Origin: Candidatus Iainarchaeum sp.
GTDB taxonomy: Archaea; B1Sed10-29; WALL01
Direction: 5' to 3'
NCBI GenBank assembly: GCA_021162685.1
Contig: JAGGYF010000043.1
Span: 1-21,099, forward strand
Length of the DNA stretch: 21,099 nt
Each line of letters starts with the position of its first letter. Within the stretch, counting starts at the first letter, position 1. A program made the position numbers and the translations under genes. Shown here one piece after another: positions 9,392-15,822 of the stretch. Under the pieces are notes generated by a model, which searched no databases, had not been told where the DNA came from, and saw only the letters and a list, made by a program, of their open reading frames with translations.

Positions 9392-12178
9392 ATGGACGAG
9401 CAAGAGGTCATAAACTATTGGAATGAGCACAACATACCAAAGAAGGTTTTGGACATCAATAAAGGGAAAAAGAAATTCTATTTTTTGGATGGTCCTCCTT
9501 ATGCAACTGGAAACATACATATGGGTACTGCTTTGAATAAGATTCTCAAGGATTACTATCTTAGATATTTTAGGATGAGGGGATATGACGTTTGGTGTCA
9601 GCCGGGTTATGATTGTCATGGTCTGCCAATAGAGAATAAGGTGGAGAAGAAATTAGGCATACGTGGAAAGGAAGAGATTGAGCAGAAGGTAGGTGTGAAG
9701 GCATTTATTGAGGAATGCAAACACTTCGCAACACAGTATATAGATGTTATGAGTCAACAGTTCAATGATCTCGGCGTGTGGATGCACTGGGATAATCCTT
9801 ACTTAACTCTCCACAAAAGTTACATGGAAGGAGCATGGTATACATTCAAAAAAACATTTGAGAAAGGGCTGCTATACAAGGGAAAGTATCCAGTCCACGT
9901 TTGTCCAAGATGCGAAACAGTTGTAGCATACAACGAGATAGAGTATGAGACAAGAGAGGACACTGCAGTATATGTTAAGTTTAAGTTAAAGGGCAAAGAC
10001 AACGACTATCTGCTCATATGGACAACTACTCCTTGGACATTACCCGCAAATACTGGTGTCATGGTTCATCCAAAATATGAATACGCAAAAGTAGAAACAA
10101 TGGCAGGAAACCTTTGGATTGCTAAGGAGTTGGTTCCAACAGTTATGGAAAAACTTGAGATGGGCTACAAAATTTTAGAAGTTGTTAAGGGCAAGGACAT
10201 GGAAGGATGGGAATACGAACATCCAATGGATATCCCATTGCAGAAAGGCATACAAGGAAGGGTTGTTCTCTCAGATAGATTTGTAAACCTAGAAGACGGA
10301 ACGGGATTAGTACATTGTGCTCCTGGGCATGGAATGGAGGACTATCTAGTAGGAAAAGAGAACGGGCTGGCACAATTAAGTCCACTGGGATTAGATGGTA
10401 GATTTGATGATAGCGTTGGAAAGTATGCAGGCATGTTTGCAAAGGATGCTGATGATGTTATTATTGAGGATTTGAGAAAGGAAGGATATCTGCTAAAAGC
10501 AGAGCGTTTTTCTCACGAATATCCGATGTGTTGGAGATGCAATTCTCCCCTGCTTTTCATTTCTGTGCCGCAGTGGTTCTTCAAGATTGATAAAGAGAAA
10601 TTAATAGAAGCGAACAAAAAGGCAAATTGGGTACCAAAATGGGCAGGTAAGCGATTTGAAAACTGGTTGGAGTCACTGAGTGATTGGCCCATAAGCAGAC
10701 AGCGCTATTGGGGTATACCTCTACCCATATGGGTATGTGATAAATGTGATAAGGTCAAGGTTGTGGGTTCAGCGAAGGAACTTGGTGTAGACCTTGATGA
10801 TTTACATAAGCCGGGCATTGATGAAGTAACACTACAATGCGAATGTGGAGGCACGATGAGAAGAGTACCAGATGTACTAGATGTTTGGTTTGATTCAGGT
10901 GTGGCTCCGTGGGCATCCCTTGGCTACCCTAACCAAAAGGAACCATTTGAATCCATGTGGCCAGTGGATTTTGTTCTAGAAGGGCCAGACCAAACAAGGG
11001 GTTGGTGGAATTCATTGACGATCTGTGGAGTTATAACTTTTGATAGGGTGCCGTTTGAGAATGTATTGCAGCATGGATTGGTTCTGTCAGAGAAAGGAGT
11101 GAAGATGAGCAAGAGCAAAGGAAATGCCATTGAGCCAGAGGAAGTAATTGAGAAATATTCAAGGGACTTATTAAGATACCTCTTCTTGAGGTATGATCCG
11201 TCTTTGGATATAGACTTTTCCTGGGACAAAGCCAAGGAACTACAAAAGTTCTTCACAATCCTTGACAATGTATTTAACTTTTTCACATTGTACTGTAAGA
11301 AAAGCGAGAATTTTGAGAATATGAAACCAGAGGACATTTGGATTATCTCCAAGGTTAATTCGCTTCTAAAGCAAGTTGATGAATACAACAAAACATTCCA
11401 GGGATATAAATCCATCCAAGCCATAGAAAACTTTGTGATAAATGATCTGAGCAGATGGTATATAAAGCTGATAAGAAATAGAACGTGGCCAACATATGAG
11501 GGCAAGGACAAAGAGGCGGCATTTGCTACACTTTATTATGTTCTGAATAGAGTCGCACTCATGCTTGCACCAGCCCTTCCACACAAAACAGAAATGTATA
11601 ACCTAGGTGTTTTTGGATATGAGACAATCCATGCACAGATGCTACCCGAACCTGAAAAAATAGACGAAACAATTGAGAGACAGATGGATATCGTGAGGGA
11701 GATAGTTGAGGCAGTTAACAGTGCAAGGGCAGATGCGAAGATAAAACTTAGGTGGCCTGTAGAGAAACTTGTTGTTGTTACTGATAACGAAGAGGTGAGG
11801 AAAACCGTTGGAGAGTTGAGCGAGTTACTGATGAATGTATGTAATGTGAAGCACATATCCCTAAATGAAGAGTTTGAAGGCACTACCTCAGAATTCTCCT
11901 CTGGAAAAGTCATAATATCAAAGAAACCTATAATGGAAGAGGCATTAGCTTCAGATGTTATCAGACAAATACAAGCAATGAGGAAAAAGGCAGGATTAAA
12001 GGTCGGAGACGAGATAAAATTAATTATTTCTGGCCATGAACTTCTTGATAAGATAAAACCGCGCGTTGTTGATAAAGTAAATGCAAAAGAGTATATTGTT
12101 GGAGAAGTTTCAGGAGAGCAGACAGCAGAAATAGATTTCATGGGGAAGACCATAAAAATAGGATTTTCAAGGGTTTAG
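9392..12178 (+). CDS. ileS: Isoleucine--tRNA ligase (archaeal type)
   Basis: FLDGPPYATGNIHMGT (HIGH variant), PGYDCHGLP, editing-domain WTTTPWT and GTGLVHCAPGHG, DWPISRQRYWG, VLDVWFDSG, EGPDQTRGW, KMSKS, SRWYIKLIR. Confidence 0.99.
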   Translation: MDEQEVINYWNEHNIPKKVLDINKGKKKFYFLDGPPYATGNIHMGTALNKILKDYYLRYFRMRGYDVWCQPGYDCHGLPIENKVEKKLGIRGKEEIEQKVGVKAFIEECKHFATQYIDVMSQQFNDLGVWMHWDNPYLTLHKSYMEGAWYTFKKTFEKGLLYKGKYPVHVCPRCETVVAYNEIEYETREDTAVYVKFKLKGKDNDYLLIWTTTPWTLPANTGVMVHPKYEYAKVETMAGNLWIAKELVPTVMEKLEMGYKILEVVKGKDMEGWEYEHPMDIPLQKGIQGRVVLSDRFVNLEDGTGLVHCAPGHGMEDYLVGKENGLAQLSPLGLDGRFDDSVGKYAGMFAKDADDVIIEDLRKEGYLLKAERFSHEYPMCWRCNSPLLFISVPQWFFKIDKEKLIEANKKANWVPKWAGKRFENWLESLSDWPISRQRYWGIPLPIWVCDKCDKVKVVGSAKELGVDLDDLHKPGIDEVTLQCECGGTMRRVPDVLDVWFDSGVAPWASLGYPNQKEPFESMWPVDFVLEGPDQTRGWWNSLTICGVITFDRVPFENVLQHGLVLSEKGVKMSKSKGNAIEPEEVIEKYSRDLLRYLFLRYDPSLDIDFSWDKAKELQKFFTILDNVFNFFTLYCKKSENFENMKPEDIWIISKVNSLLKQVDEYNKTFQGYKSIQAIENFVINDLSRWYIKLIRNRTWPTYEGKDKEAAFATLYYVLNRVALMLAPALPHKTEMYNLGVFGYETIHAQMLPEPEKIDETIERQMDIVREIVEAVNSARADAKIKLRWPVEKLVVVTDNEEVRKTVGELSELLMNVCNVKHISLNEEFEGTTSEFSSGKVIISKKPIMEEALASDVIRQIQAMRKKAGLKVGDEIKLIISGHELLDKIKPRVVDKVNAKEYIVGEVSGEQTAEIDFMGKTIKIGFSRV

Positions 12179-12217: not shown

Positions 12218-13468
12218 ATGCCATTCAAAAAAATGCCAAAAGAAAGACTTGTCAATGCAGCAATGCACCCAAGTGCAACAAGAAAGTTCCTCAGGAAGTT
12301 CCATGAATACGGCAAGAAAAACGGCTGGTTTCCAGAACTACCAAAAGACATAAAAGAAGAAGAGCTTGGAAGATGGATGCGAAAAAACACAACTCTTTCT
12401 GACAAAGAACTCGTGGAGAAGATGAGGGAATGGGTACATGATTATACAAGTGTGAAGATAATATCCGAGGAGTTCCCTGAATTGAATAAAATCTGTGAGT
12501 TACTAACACAAATGTTAACAACACCTCCACGAAAAACCCTATCTGCATTCCTTCAAACGCATCACGCTGACTGCATGGCAATGTCAACTGCATTGGGAGA
12601 GATGGCAAGAGAGATGGGATTTGATGTTGAGTATCGTGTTGTTGATAGAGAAGGTATTGACACAACTAAACTAACAGAGGAGGAAAAGAGACGTATTGAA
12701 CGGCAAGGGGACAATCATGCATACGTTGTCATTAATGGGGAACAGCATGACCCCTCACTAAATTTTTCATACACAAATCATGAAGAAAAGCCACAGACAA
12801 GGGAAGAGCGTGCAGCAATGATATGGACAAATCACGGAGCCATTTTAAGTCTTATGGGAAAACATGAAAAGGCTTTGACCGCGCATGACATTGCATTAGA
12901 AATAAATCCAAACGATGCACTAGCATGGAACAACAAGGGCGTTACACTTCATGAAATTGGCAGATATGAAGAAGCCCTTGAATACTTCGACAAAGCATTA
13001 AAAATAGAGCCAAAATTTGCAAAAGCATTAATCGGCAAAGGTATTGTACTTTCTAAAATGGGTAGATATAAAAAGGCCATTAAACACTTCGACAAAGCCT
13101 TAAAAATAAATCCAAGATATGCAGAGGCATGGGCCAAAAAAGGAGCTACACTTTGTATGATGGGTAGATACAAAAAGGCCATTAAACACTTCGACAAAGC
13201 CTTAAAAATAAATCCAAACAACGCAGAAGCATGGTACAACAAAGGTATTGCACTTTCTAAAATGGGCAGACATGAAGAAGCCCTTAAAACCGTTGAAGAA
13301 GCACTCAAGAGGATTCCAGAGGGCCATCCTTTAAGAAACAATATTGAATATGCAAGAGACGAAATTAAGAAACGAACAAAGAGCTCACCAAAGATAGGAA
13401 AAGTCAAAAAGCAGAAAAAACGAGGTAGTTTTTTGAAGAGGCTCAGTAACTATTTTAATATGCGATAG
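12218..13468 (+). CDS. Transglutaminase-like (papain-fold) domain fused to five TPR motifs
   Basis: Putative triad ADC(M), NH(AYV) and HD(PS), followed by 34-aa TPR units (AWNNKG..L...GRYEEAL..FDKAL.I.P). TATA-like TTTTATATA at 12188-12196. Confidence 0.85.
   Translation: MPFKKMPKERLVNAAMHPSATRKFLRKFHEYGKKNGWFPELPKDIKEEELGRWMRKNTTLSDKELVEKMREWVHDYTSVKIISEEFPELNKICELLTQMLTTPPRKTLSAFLQTHHADCMAMSTALGEMAREMGFDVEYRVVDREGIDTTKLTEEEKRRIERQGDNHAYVVINGEQHDPSLNFSYTNHEEKPQTREERAAMIWTNHGAILSLMGKHEKALTAHDIALEINPNDALAWNNKGVTLHEIGRYEEALEYFDKALKIEPKFAKALIGKGIVLSKMGRYKKAIKHFDKALKINPRYAEAWAKKGATLCMMGRYKKAIKHFDKALKINPNNAEAWYNKGIALSKMGRHEEALKTVEEALKRIPEGHPLRNNIEYARDEIKKRTKSSPKIGKVKKQKKRGSFLKRLSNYFNMR
13036..13266 (+). 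repeat. Near-identical nucleotide repeats between TPR units (102-nt register)
   Basis: 13058-13115 vs 13160-13217: 57/58 identical. 13036-13062 vs 13240-13266: 26/27 identical. Confidence 0.9.
13453..13460 (+). promoter_or_regulatory. Putative TATA box for the C/D sRNA, inside the 3' end of the TPR gene
   Basis: TTTTAATA ends about 21 nt upstream of the sRNA terminal stem. Confidence 0.55.
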
Positions 13469-13481
13469 ACAATAACATATC

Positions 13482-13547
13482 GCGCGGATGAAGAGCCCTA
13501 TGAGTGATGAGCATTTGCGATGATTACAGACGGGCGGTCTGACGCGC
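13482..13547 (+). ncRNA. Archaeal box C/D 2'-O-methylation guide sRNA; predicted targets 16S rRNA C1402 and pre-tRNA-Met(CAU) C34
   Basis: Terminal stem GCGCG/CGCGC; box C AUGAAGA (13488-94); 12-nt guide; D' AUGA (13507-10); short stem-loop; C' AUGAUUA (13520-26); 12-nt guide; D CUGA (13539-42). Both K-turns have 3-nt GAU bulges. It fills the GC-rich gap between two convergent genes. Confidence 0.95.
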
Positions 13548-13548
13548 A

Positions 13549-15822
13549 CTATTTGGGTTTTCCAAGTCTTATGCGATGTTCTTTTCCGCCGTATTTTATT
13601 ACTATCCCCCTCTTTCCTGTGAGGACATCAATAATAATATTCCTATACATAACCACAATTATGATAACACCAATAGAAATGATGAGAACAAATAATAGAA
13701 AGACAATGAGGAAACCCATAACTATGCCTTCATAGTTAGGCCCTTTTGTTTCGTTCATCTGTTCAGTAATATTTACCTCCTCTACGGTTTCGTTTTCTAT
13801 GGTAATATTCTCCTCTTTTGTTTCGTTTGTTACATTTTCTACAACTTCCTCTTTTGGTTCCTCCTCATATGTTGCTAGGATAGGATCCTCAAATGAGACC
13901 TGTTCAACATTCTTATTGACCTCATAGCTTACTTCTTCAACCTCTCCTGGTTTTAGCTCCAATTTCCATACAACTACTGGATCAAGGGAGACAATTTTTG
14001 TAGGAAGAGGTGAGAACAGAACAGAAGGCTTTACACACCTCTGCTCGCACTGTTGTACATATGTACTATTATCAATCTTTTTAGAGCAGTCATCACAGCG
14101 TTTAGATTTAACAATTGCATCTACGATGCACTCATAGGAGTTATTACATGCCTCAATCATCTTGTCAAGTTCTGCCTCTGTGGTTAAGTTATAGATCTCA
14201 TCCAGATAAGGCGAAAGATTCTCTATTATCTCCTTACTTATATTCTCAGTGATCTCTACCCATACCTTCTTATCCTTCGTATTCTTCACAACCAAAGATA
14301 CTTTTGATCTGCCGCCATAGTCAATATACCTTCTGACACTTACCTTATCCTCTGGAAATGCAATAGAAGGAACACTTACACTGATGCTTTTGGAGATGCT
14401 CCCATAGTTTGTTTTGAATACAATCTTTAATGTGTAGTTCCCTGGCCGTATGTACCTTTTAGGCGTTACAATCACATGGAATGTTTCATTTTTGTATACC
14501 CCAACGTCCTTGTATTCAGAAGGAGTAACCATAAAGTGCTCATATGCTCCTTCTTCTTCAACATCTACCTTTCCTCTTACCACGATATCATTTGTGTTGT
14601 TTATCACCACAGTTATGTTTTCTGCTTCCTTTAATCCTATCTCAATAGACGTTTCATTTCCCACCGAGATAAAGTTTAATTTTTTTGTTACATTTGCAAT
14701 GGGTTGTACTGCCTCTTCTTTGTAATATTTTATGTTGCTCACATTCAGGTCTAGTTCCAATGTTTTGCTTAATCCGTATTTTCCGGAGACAGTTAGAACA
14801 ATTTTGTACAAACTTGTATTTGATGGTGCTTTAAACGAAAAATGATAATAACCATCACTTCTTATATCGTCCTCCTCTTCTATCAGGACCGTATCATCCT
14901 TTTTTACTTTCATTTTTACGAGCGGATATGTGTCATCATAAAACTGCCCAATTGTTTTTCCTGTATCATAAAAGACATAACCATCAAGATACATACTTGT
15001 GTTCCCTTTCACCTTTTTTATCTCCTCTATTGGCCGTTTGTATCCAAAATACTCTATAGCATATAAACTCGCGTTCATCTCTATGCTCCTTACAAAATAG
15101 ACATTATTTATTGTTGCGTTGAAATACCAATCTGGTGGGGACGTGCCTTCTACAAATATTGTGTATAATGTGGCATACGTCTGAGTTGAATAATTTTCTG
15201 TACAGTTTTCCTGCCCATCACAACTATCTAGTTTCACCTTTGCACATTTTGTTATATCTACCGTGGCACTTCCTCCTGTGTAATTCCCTTCTGCGCATGT
15301 TCCGTTGCTGTTATATATTTTATATGTACCATTGACAAAAGAAGATTCTTTGCCTCCCGACAATTTAGCTCTAATATTCAGTTTGATGCTTTCGTTATCT
15401 GTTGCAGGAGTAAATGTGAAATTTGCTTTTAATCCTATCATATCTGGTACTTTACACTTCACGTATGTGCTTGCAATTGTATCTCCCTCATGGTCTACTT
15501 CTGCATCAACCCAGGTGTATGCACCAAATGTTTGGTTTGAGAGCATCTTTGCAGTAACTGTTTTTGAAATAGAGGAGTTGGCAGTCAGATTAGTTAATTC
15601 AAAATAAACCCTCTTTTTTCCGTCTACTGTCATTACTGATGCATTTGTGTCAACTGAAAGCGTGAAATTTGCAGTTTCATTCCCAGTATTCTTCACAGTT
15701 ATTGTAAAGGATACAGAATCTCCTGGTAGCAGCAATTGTGTAGTGCTTGGACTCATAGAAACTGTTGCAGATGCTGCTAATACTGTGCTGACCAGCAAGA
15801 CAACATAGAGCAGGCGTTTCAT
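13549..15822 (-). CDS. Membrane-anchored cell-surface protein with Ig-like (CARDB/NEW3-like) domains, probably N-glycosylated
   Basis: Signal peptide MKRLLYVVLLVSTVLAASA; PGDSVSFTITVKNTGN and PGNYTLKIVF Ig-like strands; many N-x-S/T sequons; Glu-rich stalk; C-terminal TM helix and basic tail. Confidence 0.85.
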   Translation of the reverse strand: MKRLLYVVLLVSTVLAASATVSMSPSTTQLLLPGDSVSFTITVKNTGNETANFTLSVDTNASVMTVDGKKRVYFELTNLTANSSISKTVTAKMLSNQTFGAYTWVDAEVDHEGDTIASTYVKCKVPDMIGLKANFTFTPATDNESIKLNIRAKLSGGKESSFVNGTYKIYNSNGTCAEGNYTGGSATVDITKCAKVKLDSCDGQENCTENYSTQTYATLYTIFVEGTSPPDWYFNATINNVYFVRSIEMNASLYAIEYFGYKRPIEEIKKVKGNTSMYLDGYVFYDTGKTIGQFYDDTYPLVKMKVKKDDTVLIEEEDDIRSDGYYHFSFKAPSNTSLYKIVLTVSGKYGLSKTLELDLNVSNIKYYKEEAVQPIANVTKKLNFISVGNETSIEIGLKEAENITVVINNTNDIVVRGKVDVEEEGAYEHFMVTPSEYKDVGVYKNETFHVIVTPKRYIRPGNYTLKIVFKTNYGSISKSISVSVPSIAFPEDKVSVRRYIDYGGRSKVSLVVKNTKDKKVWVEITENISKEIIENLSPYLDEIYNLTTEAELDKMIEACNNSYECIVDAIVKSKRCDDCSKKIDNSTYVQQCEQRCVKPSVLFSPLPTKIVSLDPVVVWKLELKPGEVEEVSYEVNKNVEQVSFEDPILATYEEEPKEEVVENVTNETKEENITIENETVEEVNITEQMNETKGPNYEGIVMGFLIVFLLFVLIISIGVIIIVVMYRNIIIDVLTGKRGIVIKYGGKEHRIRLGKPK

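What the first reader, a model, noticed from the sequence alone, without database searches (positions are those of the whole stretch)
13482..13547. Hidden dual-target box C/D guide RNA: 16S decoding-site C1402 plus tRNA-Met wobble C34
Seen: a complete C/D'/C'/D architecture with two 12-nt guides. The D guide GACGGGCGGU (13529-38) is the exact complement of the universal SSU sequence ACCGCCCGUC (E. coli 1398-1407), and the N+5 rule lands on C1402. The D' guide GCCCUAUGAGUG is complementary to CACUCAUA-GGGC, and N+5 lands on the C of the CAU anticodon. Known: Cm1402 is made by the protein RsmI in bacteria and by C/D snoRNAs (snR70/U43) in eukaryotes, while Cm34 of elongator tRNA-Met is RNA-guided in archaea (Haloferax sR-tMet, Pyrococcus sR49). 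Inference: one 66-nt RNA modifies both the ribosomal P-site region and a tRNA wobble base. I do not know this pairing in a single sRNA; it may be a fused guide in a streamlined genome.
Basis: partly seen in the sequence, partly recalled or inferred. Interest (0 to 1): 0.88.

Follow-up and report, generated by a model that had tools for sequence, protein, structure and literature searches.

The report
Dual-target archaeal methylation guide RNA
This is a real, conserved small archaeal guide RNA that most likely directs sugar methylation of both the ribosome's decoding site and the anticodon of methionine tRNA; both jobs are already known kinds, so only their pairing in one RNA is new.

Summary
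Window 13482-13547 (+) has a full box C/D layout: a 5-bp terminal stem, C, D', C' and D boxes, and two 12-nt spacers. A strict whole-genome scan finds 3 such layouts and none in the reversed control.

The D guide pairs 10 bp with this genome's own 16S. The fifth position falls on the C that aligns with E. coli C1402. The D' guide pairs 10 bp with the elongator pre-tRNA-Met across the exon-intron junction, and its fifth position falls on C34. That tRNA has two introns, and ARAGORN missed it.

Each 10-mer target is unique in the 1.11-Mb genome. Fibrillarin, Nop5 and L7Ae genes are present.

Six other genomes carry the same two-guide RNA, with compensatory changes in the terminal stem and a TATA-like box upstream.

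Both guide types are known. The tRNA-Met guide matches Haloferax sR-tMet and the Pyrococcus sR49/sR41 type. The C1402-type guide occurs in 29 of 401 archaeal genomes sampled, and a review lists P. abyssi Cm1369 as the equivalent site. Only the pairing of the two guides is lineage-specific, and it is not a fusion.

I found no expression or methylation data.

One open lead: the D guide also matches a conserved block in the tRNA-Leu(CAA) intron.

The parts
13454..13461 (+). TATA-box-like element TTTAATAT, centred about 25 nt upstream of the first stem base. It overlaps the last codons of the upstream TPR gene.
   Evidence: Read. A similar TTTAATA-like element lies 24-32 nt upstream of the stem in 7 of 7 homologues. 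Its role as a promoter is inferred.
13482..13486 (+). 5' strand of the terminal stem (GCGCG)
   Evidence: It pairs with 13543-47 in the MFE fold. 6 of 6 stem pairs show compensatory changes across 7 homologues: 90.5% of cells are paired against 53% in shuffles, with 0 of 500 shuffles as high.
13488..13494 (+). C box AUGAAGA (one departure from the recalled consensus RUGAUGA)
   Evidence: UGA is invariant in alignment A1.
13495..13506 (+). D' guide GCCCUAUGAGUG. Positions 2-11 pair with pre-tRNA-Met ACUCAUA|GGG. Position 5 (13502) lies opposite C34.
   Evidence: The target is at G000:C12:10806-10948 (locus L094). CCCUAUGAGU is invariant in 7 of 7 homologues. The same guide appears in the Rfam sR41 and sR-tMet consensus.
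13507..13510 (+). D' box AUGA
   Evidence: UGA is invariant in A1.
13511..13519 (+). Loop between the D' and C' boxes (variable in length and sequence among homologues)
13520..13526 (+). C' box AUGAUUA
13527..13538 (+). D guide CAGACGGGCGGU. Positions 1-10 pair with 16S ACCGCCCGUC. Position 5 (13534) lies opposite the C that aligns with E. coli C1402.
   Evidence: The 16S target is on G000:C5, minus strand, near 34467 (locus L095). The E. coli rrs copy has the 10-mer starting at base 1398. The core GACGGGCG recurs in C/D sRNAs of 29 of 401 archaeal genomes.
13539..13542 (+). D box CUGA
13543..13547 (+). 3' strand of the terminal stem (CGCGC). The stop codon of the converging gene 13549-15822 (-) follows one base later.

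Best explanation
The locus encodes a canonical archaeal box C/D sRNA of about 66 nt in a small DPANN-type archaeon; contigs of relatives are titled Candidatus Iainarchaeum or Nanobdellati. The RNA is probably transcribed from its own TATA-like promoter in the 80-nt gap between two converging genes. It would bind L7Ae at the C/D and C'/D' motifs and then recruit Nop5 and fibrillarin. The D' guide pairs with the intron-containing elongator pre-tRNA-Met across the 37/38 exon-intron junction, so fibrillarin would 2'-O-methylate wobble C34 before splicing. The D guide pairs with 16S nucleotides equivalent to E. coli 1398-1407, so C1402 at the P-site/decoding centre would be 2'-O-methylated. Shown here: the box architecture, unique 10-bp targets in the same genome, the core protein genes, conservation and stem covariation. 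Inferred: transcription, RNP assembly and both methylations.
For: Architecture; whole-genome scan 3 hits vs 0 in the control. Targets: the 16S 10-mer and the pre-tRNA-Met 10-mer are each unique in the genome apart from the sRNA's own antisense. The tRNA-Met gene has a junction ACUCAUA|GGG. The same junction occurs in tRNA-Met of G002, G004, G006 and G009, that is 5 of 5 genomes where the gene was located. Numbering: the E. coli 10-mer starts at rrs base 1398, so position 5 is C1402. Machinery: fibrillarin at 253 bits and Nop5 at 222 bits lie next to each other on C20, and L7Ae scores 107 bits. Conservation: the two-guide RNA is found in G002, G004, G005, G006, G009 and one MAG titled Thermoplasmata. 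These were the only 6 hits to a strict two-guide pattern across the 185,579-species collection. Both guide cores are invariant, and 6 of 6 stem pairs are compensatory. A TATA-like box is present in 7 of 7. The D-guide core with a C' box and a D box occurs in 29 of 401 archaeal genomes against 4 control hits. Most of these lie in clear C/D sRNAs with other D' guides. Literature passages: Cm34 of intron-containing pre-tRNA-Met is sRNA-guided and must precede splicing (PMC2584109). Table 2 of PMC11542601 lists P. abyssi 16S Cm1369 as the equivalent of E. coli Cm1402 and yeast Cm1639. Context: the only other clear stand-alone C/D sRNA in this genome (C16:25113-25167) matches 23S 12/12 at what I recall to be the P-loop. 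That fits a minimal guide set aimed at functional centres.
Against: There is no expression or modification evidence of any kind. No match reaches an Rfam gathering score. The best sub-threshold hits are sR41 at 21.2 bits against a threshold of 54, and sR-tMet at 15.4 against 50, so it is not a member of those curated families. Fold stability is unremarkable (z -1.74). Among the 7 two-guide homologues the D guide varies at positions 1-3, which pair with 16S in this genome. It is invariant at positions 11-12 (CA), which do not pair with 16S. In G006 and the Thermoplasmata-titled MAG the contiguous 16S pairing would be only 7 bp. In that comparison the 16S stretch itself was found only in G005 and G009, 2 of 5 relatives searched; for the others the universal sequence is assumed. 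A survey of seven archaea predicts no guide for this position and finds helix 44 sparsely targeted (PMC4644070 passages). The D guide also has an alternative complementary partner in the tRNA-Leu(CAA) intron.
Confidence: 0.72

Rival explanations
1. The sRNA is genuine, but its D guide has a second or even main partner: a conserved GCCCGUCU block inside the intron of pre-tRNA-Leu(CAA). The D' guide would pair imperfectly with the tRNA-Leu anticodon/intron junction ACUCAAG|GGG. The RNP would then clamp this precursor with both guides and methylate its C34, or chaperone its folding or splicing.
For: The 8-mer complement of the guide core occurs 3 times in the genome: 16S, the sRNA's own antisense and the tRNA-Leu(CAA) intron. 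GCCCGUCU is exact in the tRNA-Leu(CAA) introns of G000, G002, G004 and G005, while the flanks are unalignable. Contiguous Watson-Crick pairing with each genome's own D guide is 9, 11, 8 and 8 bp. Shuffle p-values are 0.0002, below 0.00005, 0.0006 and 0.003. In G002 the guide's variable positions 1-3 also pair. Introns of tRNA-Leu(CAA) in four genomes outside these families (G013, G014, G018, G024) give runs of only 3-5. 5 of the 6 tRNA-Leu(CAA) introns in genomes with the two-guide sRNA start with GGG, like the tRNA-Met intron, against 0 of those 4. I found no dedicated tRNA-Leu(CAA) C34 guide in G000. G001, G007, G008 and G010 instead carry the same D guide beside a tRNA-Leu(CAA) C34 guide, and G007's tRNA-Leu(CAA) has no intron. 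The invariant A at guide position 11 pairs with the intron but not with 16S.
Against: The four exact cases belong to one family and are not independent. In G006 and G009 the block is degenerate, with Watson-Crick runs of 4 and runs of 7-8 only if G-U pairs are allowed (p 0.03-0.08). GCCC can pair with the intron's own leading GGGU, which explains part of the conservation. The nucleotide at the fifth position would lie in the discarded intron. The D' pairing has an A-A mismatch two positions from C34. The D guide persists where there is no such intron (G007) or no such block (G013), and in 20 genomes outside the class. The tRNA-Leu(CAA) genes of G001, G008, G010 and G041 were not located.
Confidence: 0.2
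2. Only the tRNA-Met guide is functional. The D guide would be a decaying or orphan guide in this lineage, and 16S C1402 would be left unmodified or modified by some other means.
For: Positions 1-3 of the D guide drift among homologues, and two of them have only 7 contiguous bp to 16S. H. volcanii 16S carries no modification at 1402 (PMC2584109 Table 4). Reviews say tRNA-targeting sRNAs often have one guide without a target (PMC7994747).
Against: In this genome the match is 10 contiguous bp and unique. The core GACGGGCG, which is exactly C1400-C1407, is kept across 12 of 31 class genomes and 20 more distant genomes, next to different D' guides. An orphan guide would not be kept in this way.
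Confidence: 0.06
3. This is a chance resemblance, or a non-RNA element such as a GC-rich terminator hairpin between converging genes.
For: The element fills the whole gap between two converging ORFs. The fold z-score is weak.
Against: The reversed-genome control gives 0 hits. There are two unique 10-bp targets at known modification sites. The element is conserved with compensatory stem changes in unrelated genomic contexts.
Confidence: 0.02

Closest known systems
Haloferax sR-tMet (Rfam RF02163) and the Pyrococcus tRNA-Met guide (called sR49 in PMC2584109; Rfam sR41, RF01126, carries the same guide)
   Same: The guide sequence is practically identical (GAGCCCUAUGAGUG or ...GCG). The target is C34 of elongator tRNA-Met. 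The pairing runs across the exon-intron junction, so methylation must precede splicing (PMC2584109 passages).
   Different: Here the tRNA-Met guide is the D' guide. In the Thermococcales-like sR41 loci I inspected it is the D guide, with unrelated D' guides. CM scores are far below both gathering thresholds. The partner guide is the 16S C1402 type.
Archaeal and eukaryotic guides for the 16S/18S C1402-equivalent: P. abyssi Cm1369, yeast snR70 (Cm1639), plant AtU43, and human Cm1703 (guide U43 by recall)
   Same: They share the same universally conserved target stretch and the same nucleotide at the P-site/decoding centre (PMC11542601 Tables 1-2; PMC8307265 table).
   Different: I could not see which Pyrococcus sRNA guides Cm1369. 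Homology to snR70/U43 beyond the guide was not tested. 14 of the 20 related archaeal loci outside the class were scanned, and none matches an Rfam C/D family.
Bacterial RsmI (protein-only Cm1402 methyltransferase)
   Same: Same nucleotide and same chemistry (PMC5053481 abstract in the search listing; PMC11542601).
   Different: RsmI is a stand-alone enzyme without a guide RNA and is unrelated in mechanism. I did not search this genome for an RsmI homologue.
tRNA-Leu(CAA)/C1402-type sRNAs of relatives G001, G007, G008 and G010
   Same: They have the same D guide core, the same box layout and 12-nt spacers. Their D' guide also places a wobble C34 at position 5.
   Different: Their D' guide is complementary to tRNA-Leu(CAA) at the mature exon-exon sequence (shown for G007), not to tRNA-Met.

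Membership tests
Archaeal box C/D methylation-guide sRNA | A C box (RUGAUGA) near the 5' end and a D box (CUGA) near the 3' end | tested here: met
   AUGAAGA at 13488-94 (one mismatch) and CUGA at 13539-42. The strict scan gave 3 hits vs 0 in the control. The consensus motifs are recalled.
Archaeal box C/D methylation-guide sRNA | Internal D' and C' boxes with guide spacers of about 12 nt | tested here: met
   AUGA at 13507-10 and AUGAUUA at 13520-26; both spacers are 12 nt. The 12-nt D spacer is kept in all 7 homologues.
Archaeal box C/D methylation-guide sRNA | A terminal helix that juxtaposes the C and D boxes | tested here: met
   A 5-bp stem in the MFE fold. 6 of 6 pairs have compensatory changes, and 0 of 500 shuffles reach the observed pairing.
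Archaeal box C/D methylation-guide sRNA | A guide complementary (9 bp or more) to rRNA or tRNA, with the target at the fifth position upstream of D or D' | tested here: met
   10 bp to 16S with position 5 opposite C1402. 10 bp to pre-tRNA-Met with position 5 opposite C34.
Archaeal box C/D methylation-guide sRNA | L7Ae, Nop5 and fibrillarin encoded in the genome | tested here: met
   PF01269 at 253.5 bits, PF01798 at 221.7 bits, PF01248 at 107.2 bits.
Archaeal box C/D methylation-guide sRNA | Accumulates as a discrete small RNA | not testable with these tools
   No RNA run holds the locus.
Archaeal box C/D methylation-guide sRNA | 2'-O-methylation present at the predicted sites | not testable with these tools
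   No modification data are available for this uncultured organism.
Rfam RF02163 (sR-tMet) | Covariance-model score at or above the gathering threshold (50 bits) | tested here: not met
   15.4 bits, E 3.2; only the guide segment aligns.
Rfam RF01126 (sR41) | Covariance-model score at or above the gathering threshold (54 bits) | tested here: not met
   21.2 bits, E 0.0037. The alignment covers only the model's second half, C' box to D box, placed on this RNA's C box to D' box.
Functional class: guide for Cm34 of intron-containing elongator pre-tRNA-Met | The duplex spans the 37/38 exon-intron junction with C34 at position 5 | tested here: met
   G000:C12:10806-10948 reads CCAGA-CUCAUA|GGGAUGG. 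The junction is the same in G002, G004, G006 and G009.
Functional class: guide for the SSU rRNA C1402-equivalent | A duplex on the universally conserved 1398-1407 stretch with C1402 at position 5 | tested here: met

The most novel reading that the evidence does not exclude
In this lineage one C/D RNP may recognise a third substrate, the intron-containing pre-tRNA-Leu(CAA), using both guides at once. The tRNA-Met guide would pair, with one mismatch, with the anticodon/intron junction ACUCAAG|GGG. The '16S' guide would pair with a conserved 16S-like block (GCCCGUCU) 8-17 nt further into the intron. The intron would then have evolved as a docking site that lets a minimal guide set also methylate C34 of tRNA-Leu(CAA). 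This would be an intron-encoded target mimic that recruits a trans-acting guide RNP.
Probability: 0.2. Interest if true: 0.7.

Novelty: new member of a known kind. Interest (0 to 1): 0.4.

Why it matters
The finding gives an unannotated C/D sRNA family in DPANN-type archaea, a group with few described C/D sRNAs. My search for DPANN, box C D, sRNA and fibrillarin returned one unrelated paper.

It suggests that a very small genome keeps only a handful of guides, and that these are aimed at sites that other domains also methylate: 16S C1402, the 23S P-loop, and the wobble positions of tRNA-Met and tRNA-Trp. That fits the view that these are the most functionally important 2'-O-methylations.

It also shows guide modules being re-paired between related sRNAs. 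The C1402 guide sits beside a tRNA-Met guide, a tRNA-Leu guide or other guides.

If the tRNA-Leu intron link is real, it would be a new way of extending the substrate range of a guide RNP.

Tried and rejected
**Rfam.** At gathering thresholds there were no hits in the window. A repeat on locus L001 covered the same DNA and was a wasted call. L007 also gave no hit.

**tRNA-Met search.** ARAGORN with and without introns, and the RF00005 search, found only the initiator tRNA-Met. My own anticodon-arm scan did the same. A 12-mer search allowing up to 1 mismatch missed the elongator, because the two end positions of the guide do not pair. The elongator was found only by BLAST with relatives' tRNA-Met genes.

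**Expression.** The look-up of sequencing runs listed 5 DNA holders in 2 studies and no RNA holder. I therefore did not use read laying.

**Papers not held.** Clouet d'Orval 2001 (PMC92551) and the Haloferax sR-tMet paper (by a DOI I recalled) are not held. I could not see which second guide Pyrococcus sR49 carries, or which sRNA guides P. abyssi Cm1369. Additional file 5 of PMC2584109, which lists 18 tRNA-Met guide candidates, may already show this pairing.

**False lead 1.** G010:C34:3005-3048 looked like a tRNA-Leu(CAA) intron, but its context is not a tRNA. I dropped it.

**False lead 2.** In G041 the 9-mer GCCCGTCTG gave 23 hits against 21 control hits, which is chance level. One hit with 15 letters identical to 16S lies in a reading frame with a radical-SAM-like cysteine motif on the opposite strand. 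The tRNA-Leu(CAA) of G041 was not found.

**Other dead ends.**
- (pattern with trailing N) was uninformative.
- Looser C/D scans added 6 candidates. None has 10 nt or more of rRNA complementarity; one on C38 has 9.
- Folds of pre-tRNA-Leu from three relatives gave no common intramolecular partner for the intron block.
- I first misassigned two intronless tRNA-Leu(CAA) genes to G008 and G022. They belong to G011 and G021 (corrected in note).
- I did not search for an RsmI-like protein.

Full report
**What is there.**
Window 13482-13547 (+) reads: GCGCG-G, AUGAAGA, GCCCUAUGAGUG, AUGA, GCAUUUGCG, AUGAUUA, CAGACGGGCGGU, CUGA, CGCGC. This is a complete box C/D layout with two 12-nt spacers and a 5-bp terminal stem. 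The stem appears in the MFE fold, although overall stability is unremarkable (z -1.74).

The element fills the 80-nt gap between a TPR-repeat ORF (12218-13468, +) and a large ORF on the other strand (13549-15822, -). A TTTAATAT element lies at 13454-13461, about 25 nt upstream of the stem.

**Is it more than chance?**
- A strict scan for the same layout over the whole assembly (1.11 Mb, 45 contigs, 98.4% complete) gave 3 hits against 0 in the reversed-sequence control. Looser settings gave 8 vs 0, 16 vs 3, 8 vs 1 and 36 vs 8.
- Rfam gives nothing at gathering thresholds.
- With permissive thresholds, the best matches are Pyrococcus sR41 (21.2 bits, threshold 54) and Haloferax sR-tMet (15.4 bits, threshold 50). 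Both align only over the box-plus-guide segment GAGCCCUAUGAG.

**The D guide and 16S.**
The complement of guide positions 1-10 (ACCGCCCGTC) occurs exactly twice in the genome: on contig C5, minus strand, near 34467, and as the sRNA's own antisense. The C5 stretch aligns to annotated E. coli 16S genes.

In one such E. coli record the 16S feature starts at the usual first bases, and the 10-mer starts at base 1398. The guide's fifth position upstream of box D (13534) therefore faces C1402. Guide positions 11-12 (A, C) face A, A and do not pair.

**The D' guide and tRNA-Met.**
ARAGORN and the tRNA covariance model found only one CAU tRNA. I read it as the initiator, and it does not match the guide. 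Relatives pointed to the real target.

G006 and G009 have an elongator tRNA-Met whose anticodon loop CUCAUA is followed directly by an intron starting with GGGC. BLAST with these genes found the window genome's copy at C12:10806-10948. It has one intron in the D-arm and one at 37/38, reading CCAGA-CUCAUA|GGGAUGG.

Guide positions 2-11 pair continuously with ACUCAUA|GGG, and position 5 (13502) faces C34. The 10-mer is unique in the genome apart from the antisense. G002 and G004 have the same junction.

This is the situation described for Haloferax and Pyrococcus. There, part of the intron pairs with the sRNA, so Cm34 must be made before splicing (PMC2584109, passages).

**Machinery.**
Fibrillarin and Nop5 genes lie next to each other on C20, and an L7Ae gene lies on C15.

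**Conservation.**
A DNA search of 40 relatives and a strict two-guide pattern scan of the 185,579-species collection recovered the same two-guide RNA in six further genomes:
- G002, G004 and G005, in the same family as the window genome;
- G006 and G009, in a second family of the same order;
- one MAG titled 'uncultured Thermoplasmata archaeon'.

Other record titles name Candidatus Iainarchaeum and Nanobdellati.

In the 7-sequence alignment, CCCUAUGAGU (D' positions 2-11) and CAGACGGGC (D positions 4-12) are invariant, while the loop and stem differ. All six terminal-stem pairs show changes on both sides. 90.5% of cells are paired against 53% in shuffles, and 0 of 500 shuffles reach that level. 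Slid controls give 36-60%. A TTTAATA-like box lies 24-32 nt upstream in 7 of 7.

**How common are the two guide modules?**
Within the class (31 genomes), the D-guide core in a C/D context occurs in 12 genomes, with these D' guides:
- a tRNA-Met guide in 6: G000, G002, G004, G005, G006, G009;
- a guide complementary to tRNA-Leu(CAA) with C34 at position 5 in 4: G001, G007, G008, G010;
- other guides in 2: G013, G017.

G001 and G003 also have a tRNA-Met-guide sRNA with a different D guide.

In a sample of 401 archaeal genomes, the pattern 'C' box, two bases, GACGGGCG, R, one base, xxGA' matched in 29, against 4 control hits. Twenty of the 29 lie outside the class, in eight other families. By eye nearly all are C/D sRNAs with other D' guides. 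I scanned 14 of those loci against Rfam and none hits a C/D family.

The conserved core GACGGGCG is exactly the complement of C1400-C1407.

The sR41 model finds tRNA-Met-guide sRNAs in 40 of 151 genomes at E of 0.001 or better, with one above threshold. In the 12 loci I inspected, the tRNA-Met guide is the D guide and sits beside unrelated D' guides.

**What the literature says.**
- A review table lists P. abyssi 16S Cm1369 alongside E. coli Cm1402, yeast Cm1639 and human Cm1703 (PMC11542601, Table 2).
- Yeast Cm1639 is assigned to snR70 (PMC8307265, table).
- H. volcanii has nothing at 1402 (PMC2584109, Table 4).
- A seven-species survey predicts no guide there (PMC4644070, passages).

**Reading.**
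This is a genuine two-guide box C/D sRNA. Both of its jobs are known kinds. What is particular to this lineage is that the tRNA-Met C34 guide and the 16S C1402 guide share one RNA.

It is not a fusion. Archaeal C/D sRNAs normally carry two guides, and guide pairs are reshuffled between lineages (PMC7994747 abstract).

The genome seems to hold very few guides. The only other clear stand-alone one (C16:25113-25167) matches 23S 12/12. The tRNA-Trp intron carries C/D-like boxes.

**What does not fit neatly.**
Among the 7 homologues, D-guide positions 1-3 vary (GGU, GAA, AGA, GGG, GGA, GGG, AGG), although they pair with 16S here. Positions 11-12 (CA) never vary, although they do not pair with 16S.

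In G006 and the Thermoplasmata-titled MAG, 16S pairing would be 7 contiguous bp. For G002, G004 and G006 the 16S stretch is not in the assembly, and I assumed the universal sequence.

Outside the class, position 11 is not fixed. One other family keeps two non-pairing bases invariant in all 10 of its hits. Such invariance may therefore be inheritance rather than selection.

**A lead.**
The 8-mer CGCCCGTC occurs three times in the genome. The third copy lies in the intron of tRNA-Leu(CAA) at C17:9110-9222.

The tRNA-Leu(CAA) introns of G000, G002, G004 and G005 all contain GCCCGUCU amid unalignable flanks. Pairing with each genome's own D guide is 9, 11, 8 and 8 contiguous bp. Shuffle p-values are 0.0002, below 0.00005, 0.0006 and 0.003. 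These four genomes are kin, so the p-values overstate the case.

In G006 and G009 the block is degenerate: Watson-Crick runs of 4, or 7-8 with G-U pairs. Four other class genomes with tRNA-Leu(CAA) introns lack the block. G007, G011 and G021 have no intron.

Five of the six introns in genomes that carry the two-guide sRNA begin with GGG, as the tRNA-Met intron does. The D' guide would then pair with ACUCAAG|GGG, except for one A-A mismatch and G-U pairs. I found no dedicated tRNA-Leu(CAA) guide in G000.

Evidence against a role for this block:
- GCCC can pair with the intron's own GGGU.
- The nucleotide at the fifth position would be intronic.
- The D guide persists without such an intron in G007 and without the block in G013.

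I give this reading about 0.2.

**Limits.**
No RNA run holds the locus, so transcription is inferred. No modification data exist for this organism. Two key papers and all supplementary files could not be read. The pairing of the two guides may therefore already be tabulated somewhere I could not see.

Noticed in passing
L200 (G000:C16:25080-25200); sRNA at C16:25113-25167 (+): A second canonical C/D sRNA. Its D' guide matches 23S 12/12 at C5:31722 (-). By recall this is the P-loop, with position 5 on the G2251-equivalent. Its D guide has 9 contiguous nt to another 23S site.
   Followed up: partly
L096 (G000:C7:2690-2900): The tRNA-Trp(CCA) gene has an intron of about 60 nt with C-box-like AUGAUGA and a stretch complementary to GCUCCAG of its own anticodon loop. 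It looks like the known intron-encoded C/D guide of euryarchaeal pre-tRNA-Trp. Neither ARAGORN nor the tRNA model found this gene.
   Followed up: partly
L094 (G000:C12:10800-10950): The elongator tRNA-Met has two introns. The first, in the D-arm, contains UGAUGA. The gene is invisible to ARAGORN and to the Rfam tRNA model.
   Followed up: partly
L201 (G000:C30:9680-9990) and the start of G000:C7 (about 1-200): Two tRNA genes share a nearly identical insertion of about 70 nt in the D-loop region as well as a second intron. ARAGORN calls the C30 gene tRNA-Glu(CUC). This could be a repeated or mobile intron.
   Followed up: no
G000:C30:14774-14878: An intron-containing tRNA-Ile with anticodon UAU is present. 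No CAU-type tRNA-Ile2 was seen. AUA may therefore be read without agmatidine, as reported by recall for some small archaea.
   Followed up: no
L008, L084, L085, L086 (G010, G008, G007, G001): These relatives carry the same 16S C1402-type D guide beside a D' guide complementary to tRNA-Leu(CAA), with C34 at position 5. In G007 it matches the mature, intron-free sequence.
   Followed up: partly
L189 (G060:C1, near 1208981-1209033): A Thermococcales-like sR41 homologue has a D' guide (GUAUUGAGUG) that resembles a CAA-anticodon-loop guide. The wobble guides for tRNA-Met and tRNA-Leu may therefore share one sRNA there.
   Followed up: no
window 9392-12178 (+), 12218-13468 (+), 13549-15822 (-): The neighbours are a 928-aa isoleucyl-tRNA-synthetase-like ORF, a 416-aa TPR-repeat ORF ending 14 nt before the sRNA, and a 757-aa ORF rich in Asn-X-Ser/Thr with a C-terminal hydrophobic segment that looks like a surface protein. 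The names come from reading the translations and were not searched.
   Followed up: no
alignment A1, columns of D-guide positions 11-12: CA is invariant in all 7 two-guide homologues, although it pairs with neither 16S nor (at position 12) the tRNA-Leu intron. This is unexplained.
   Followed up: partly
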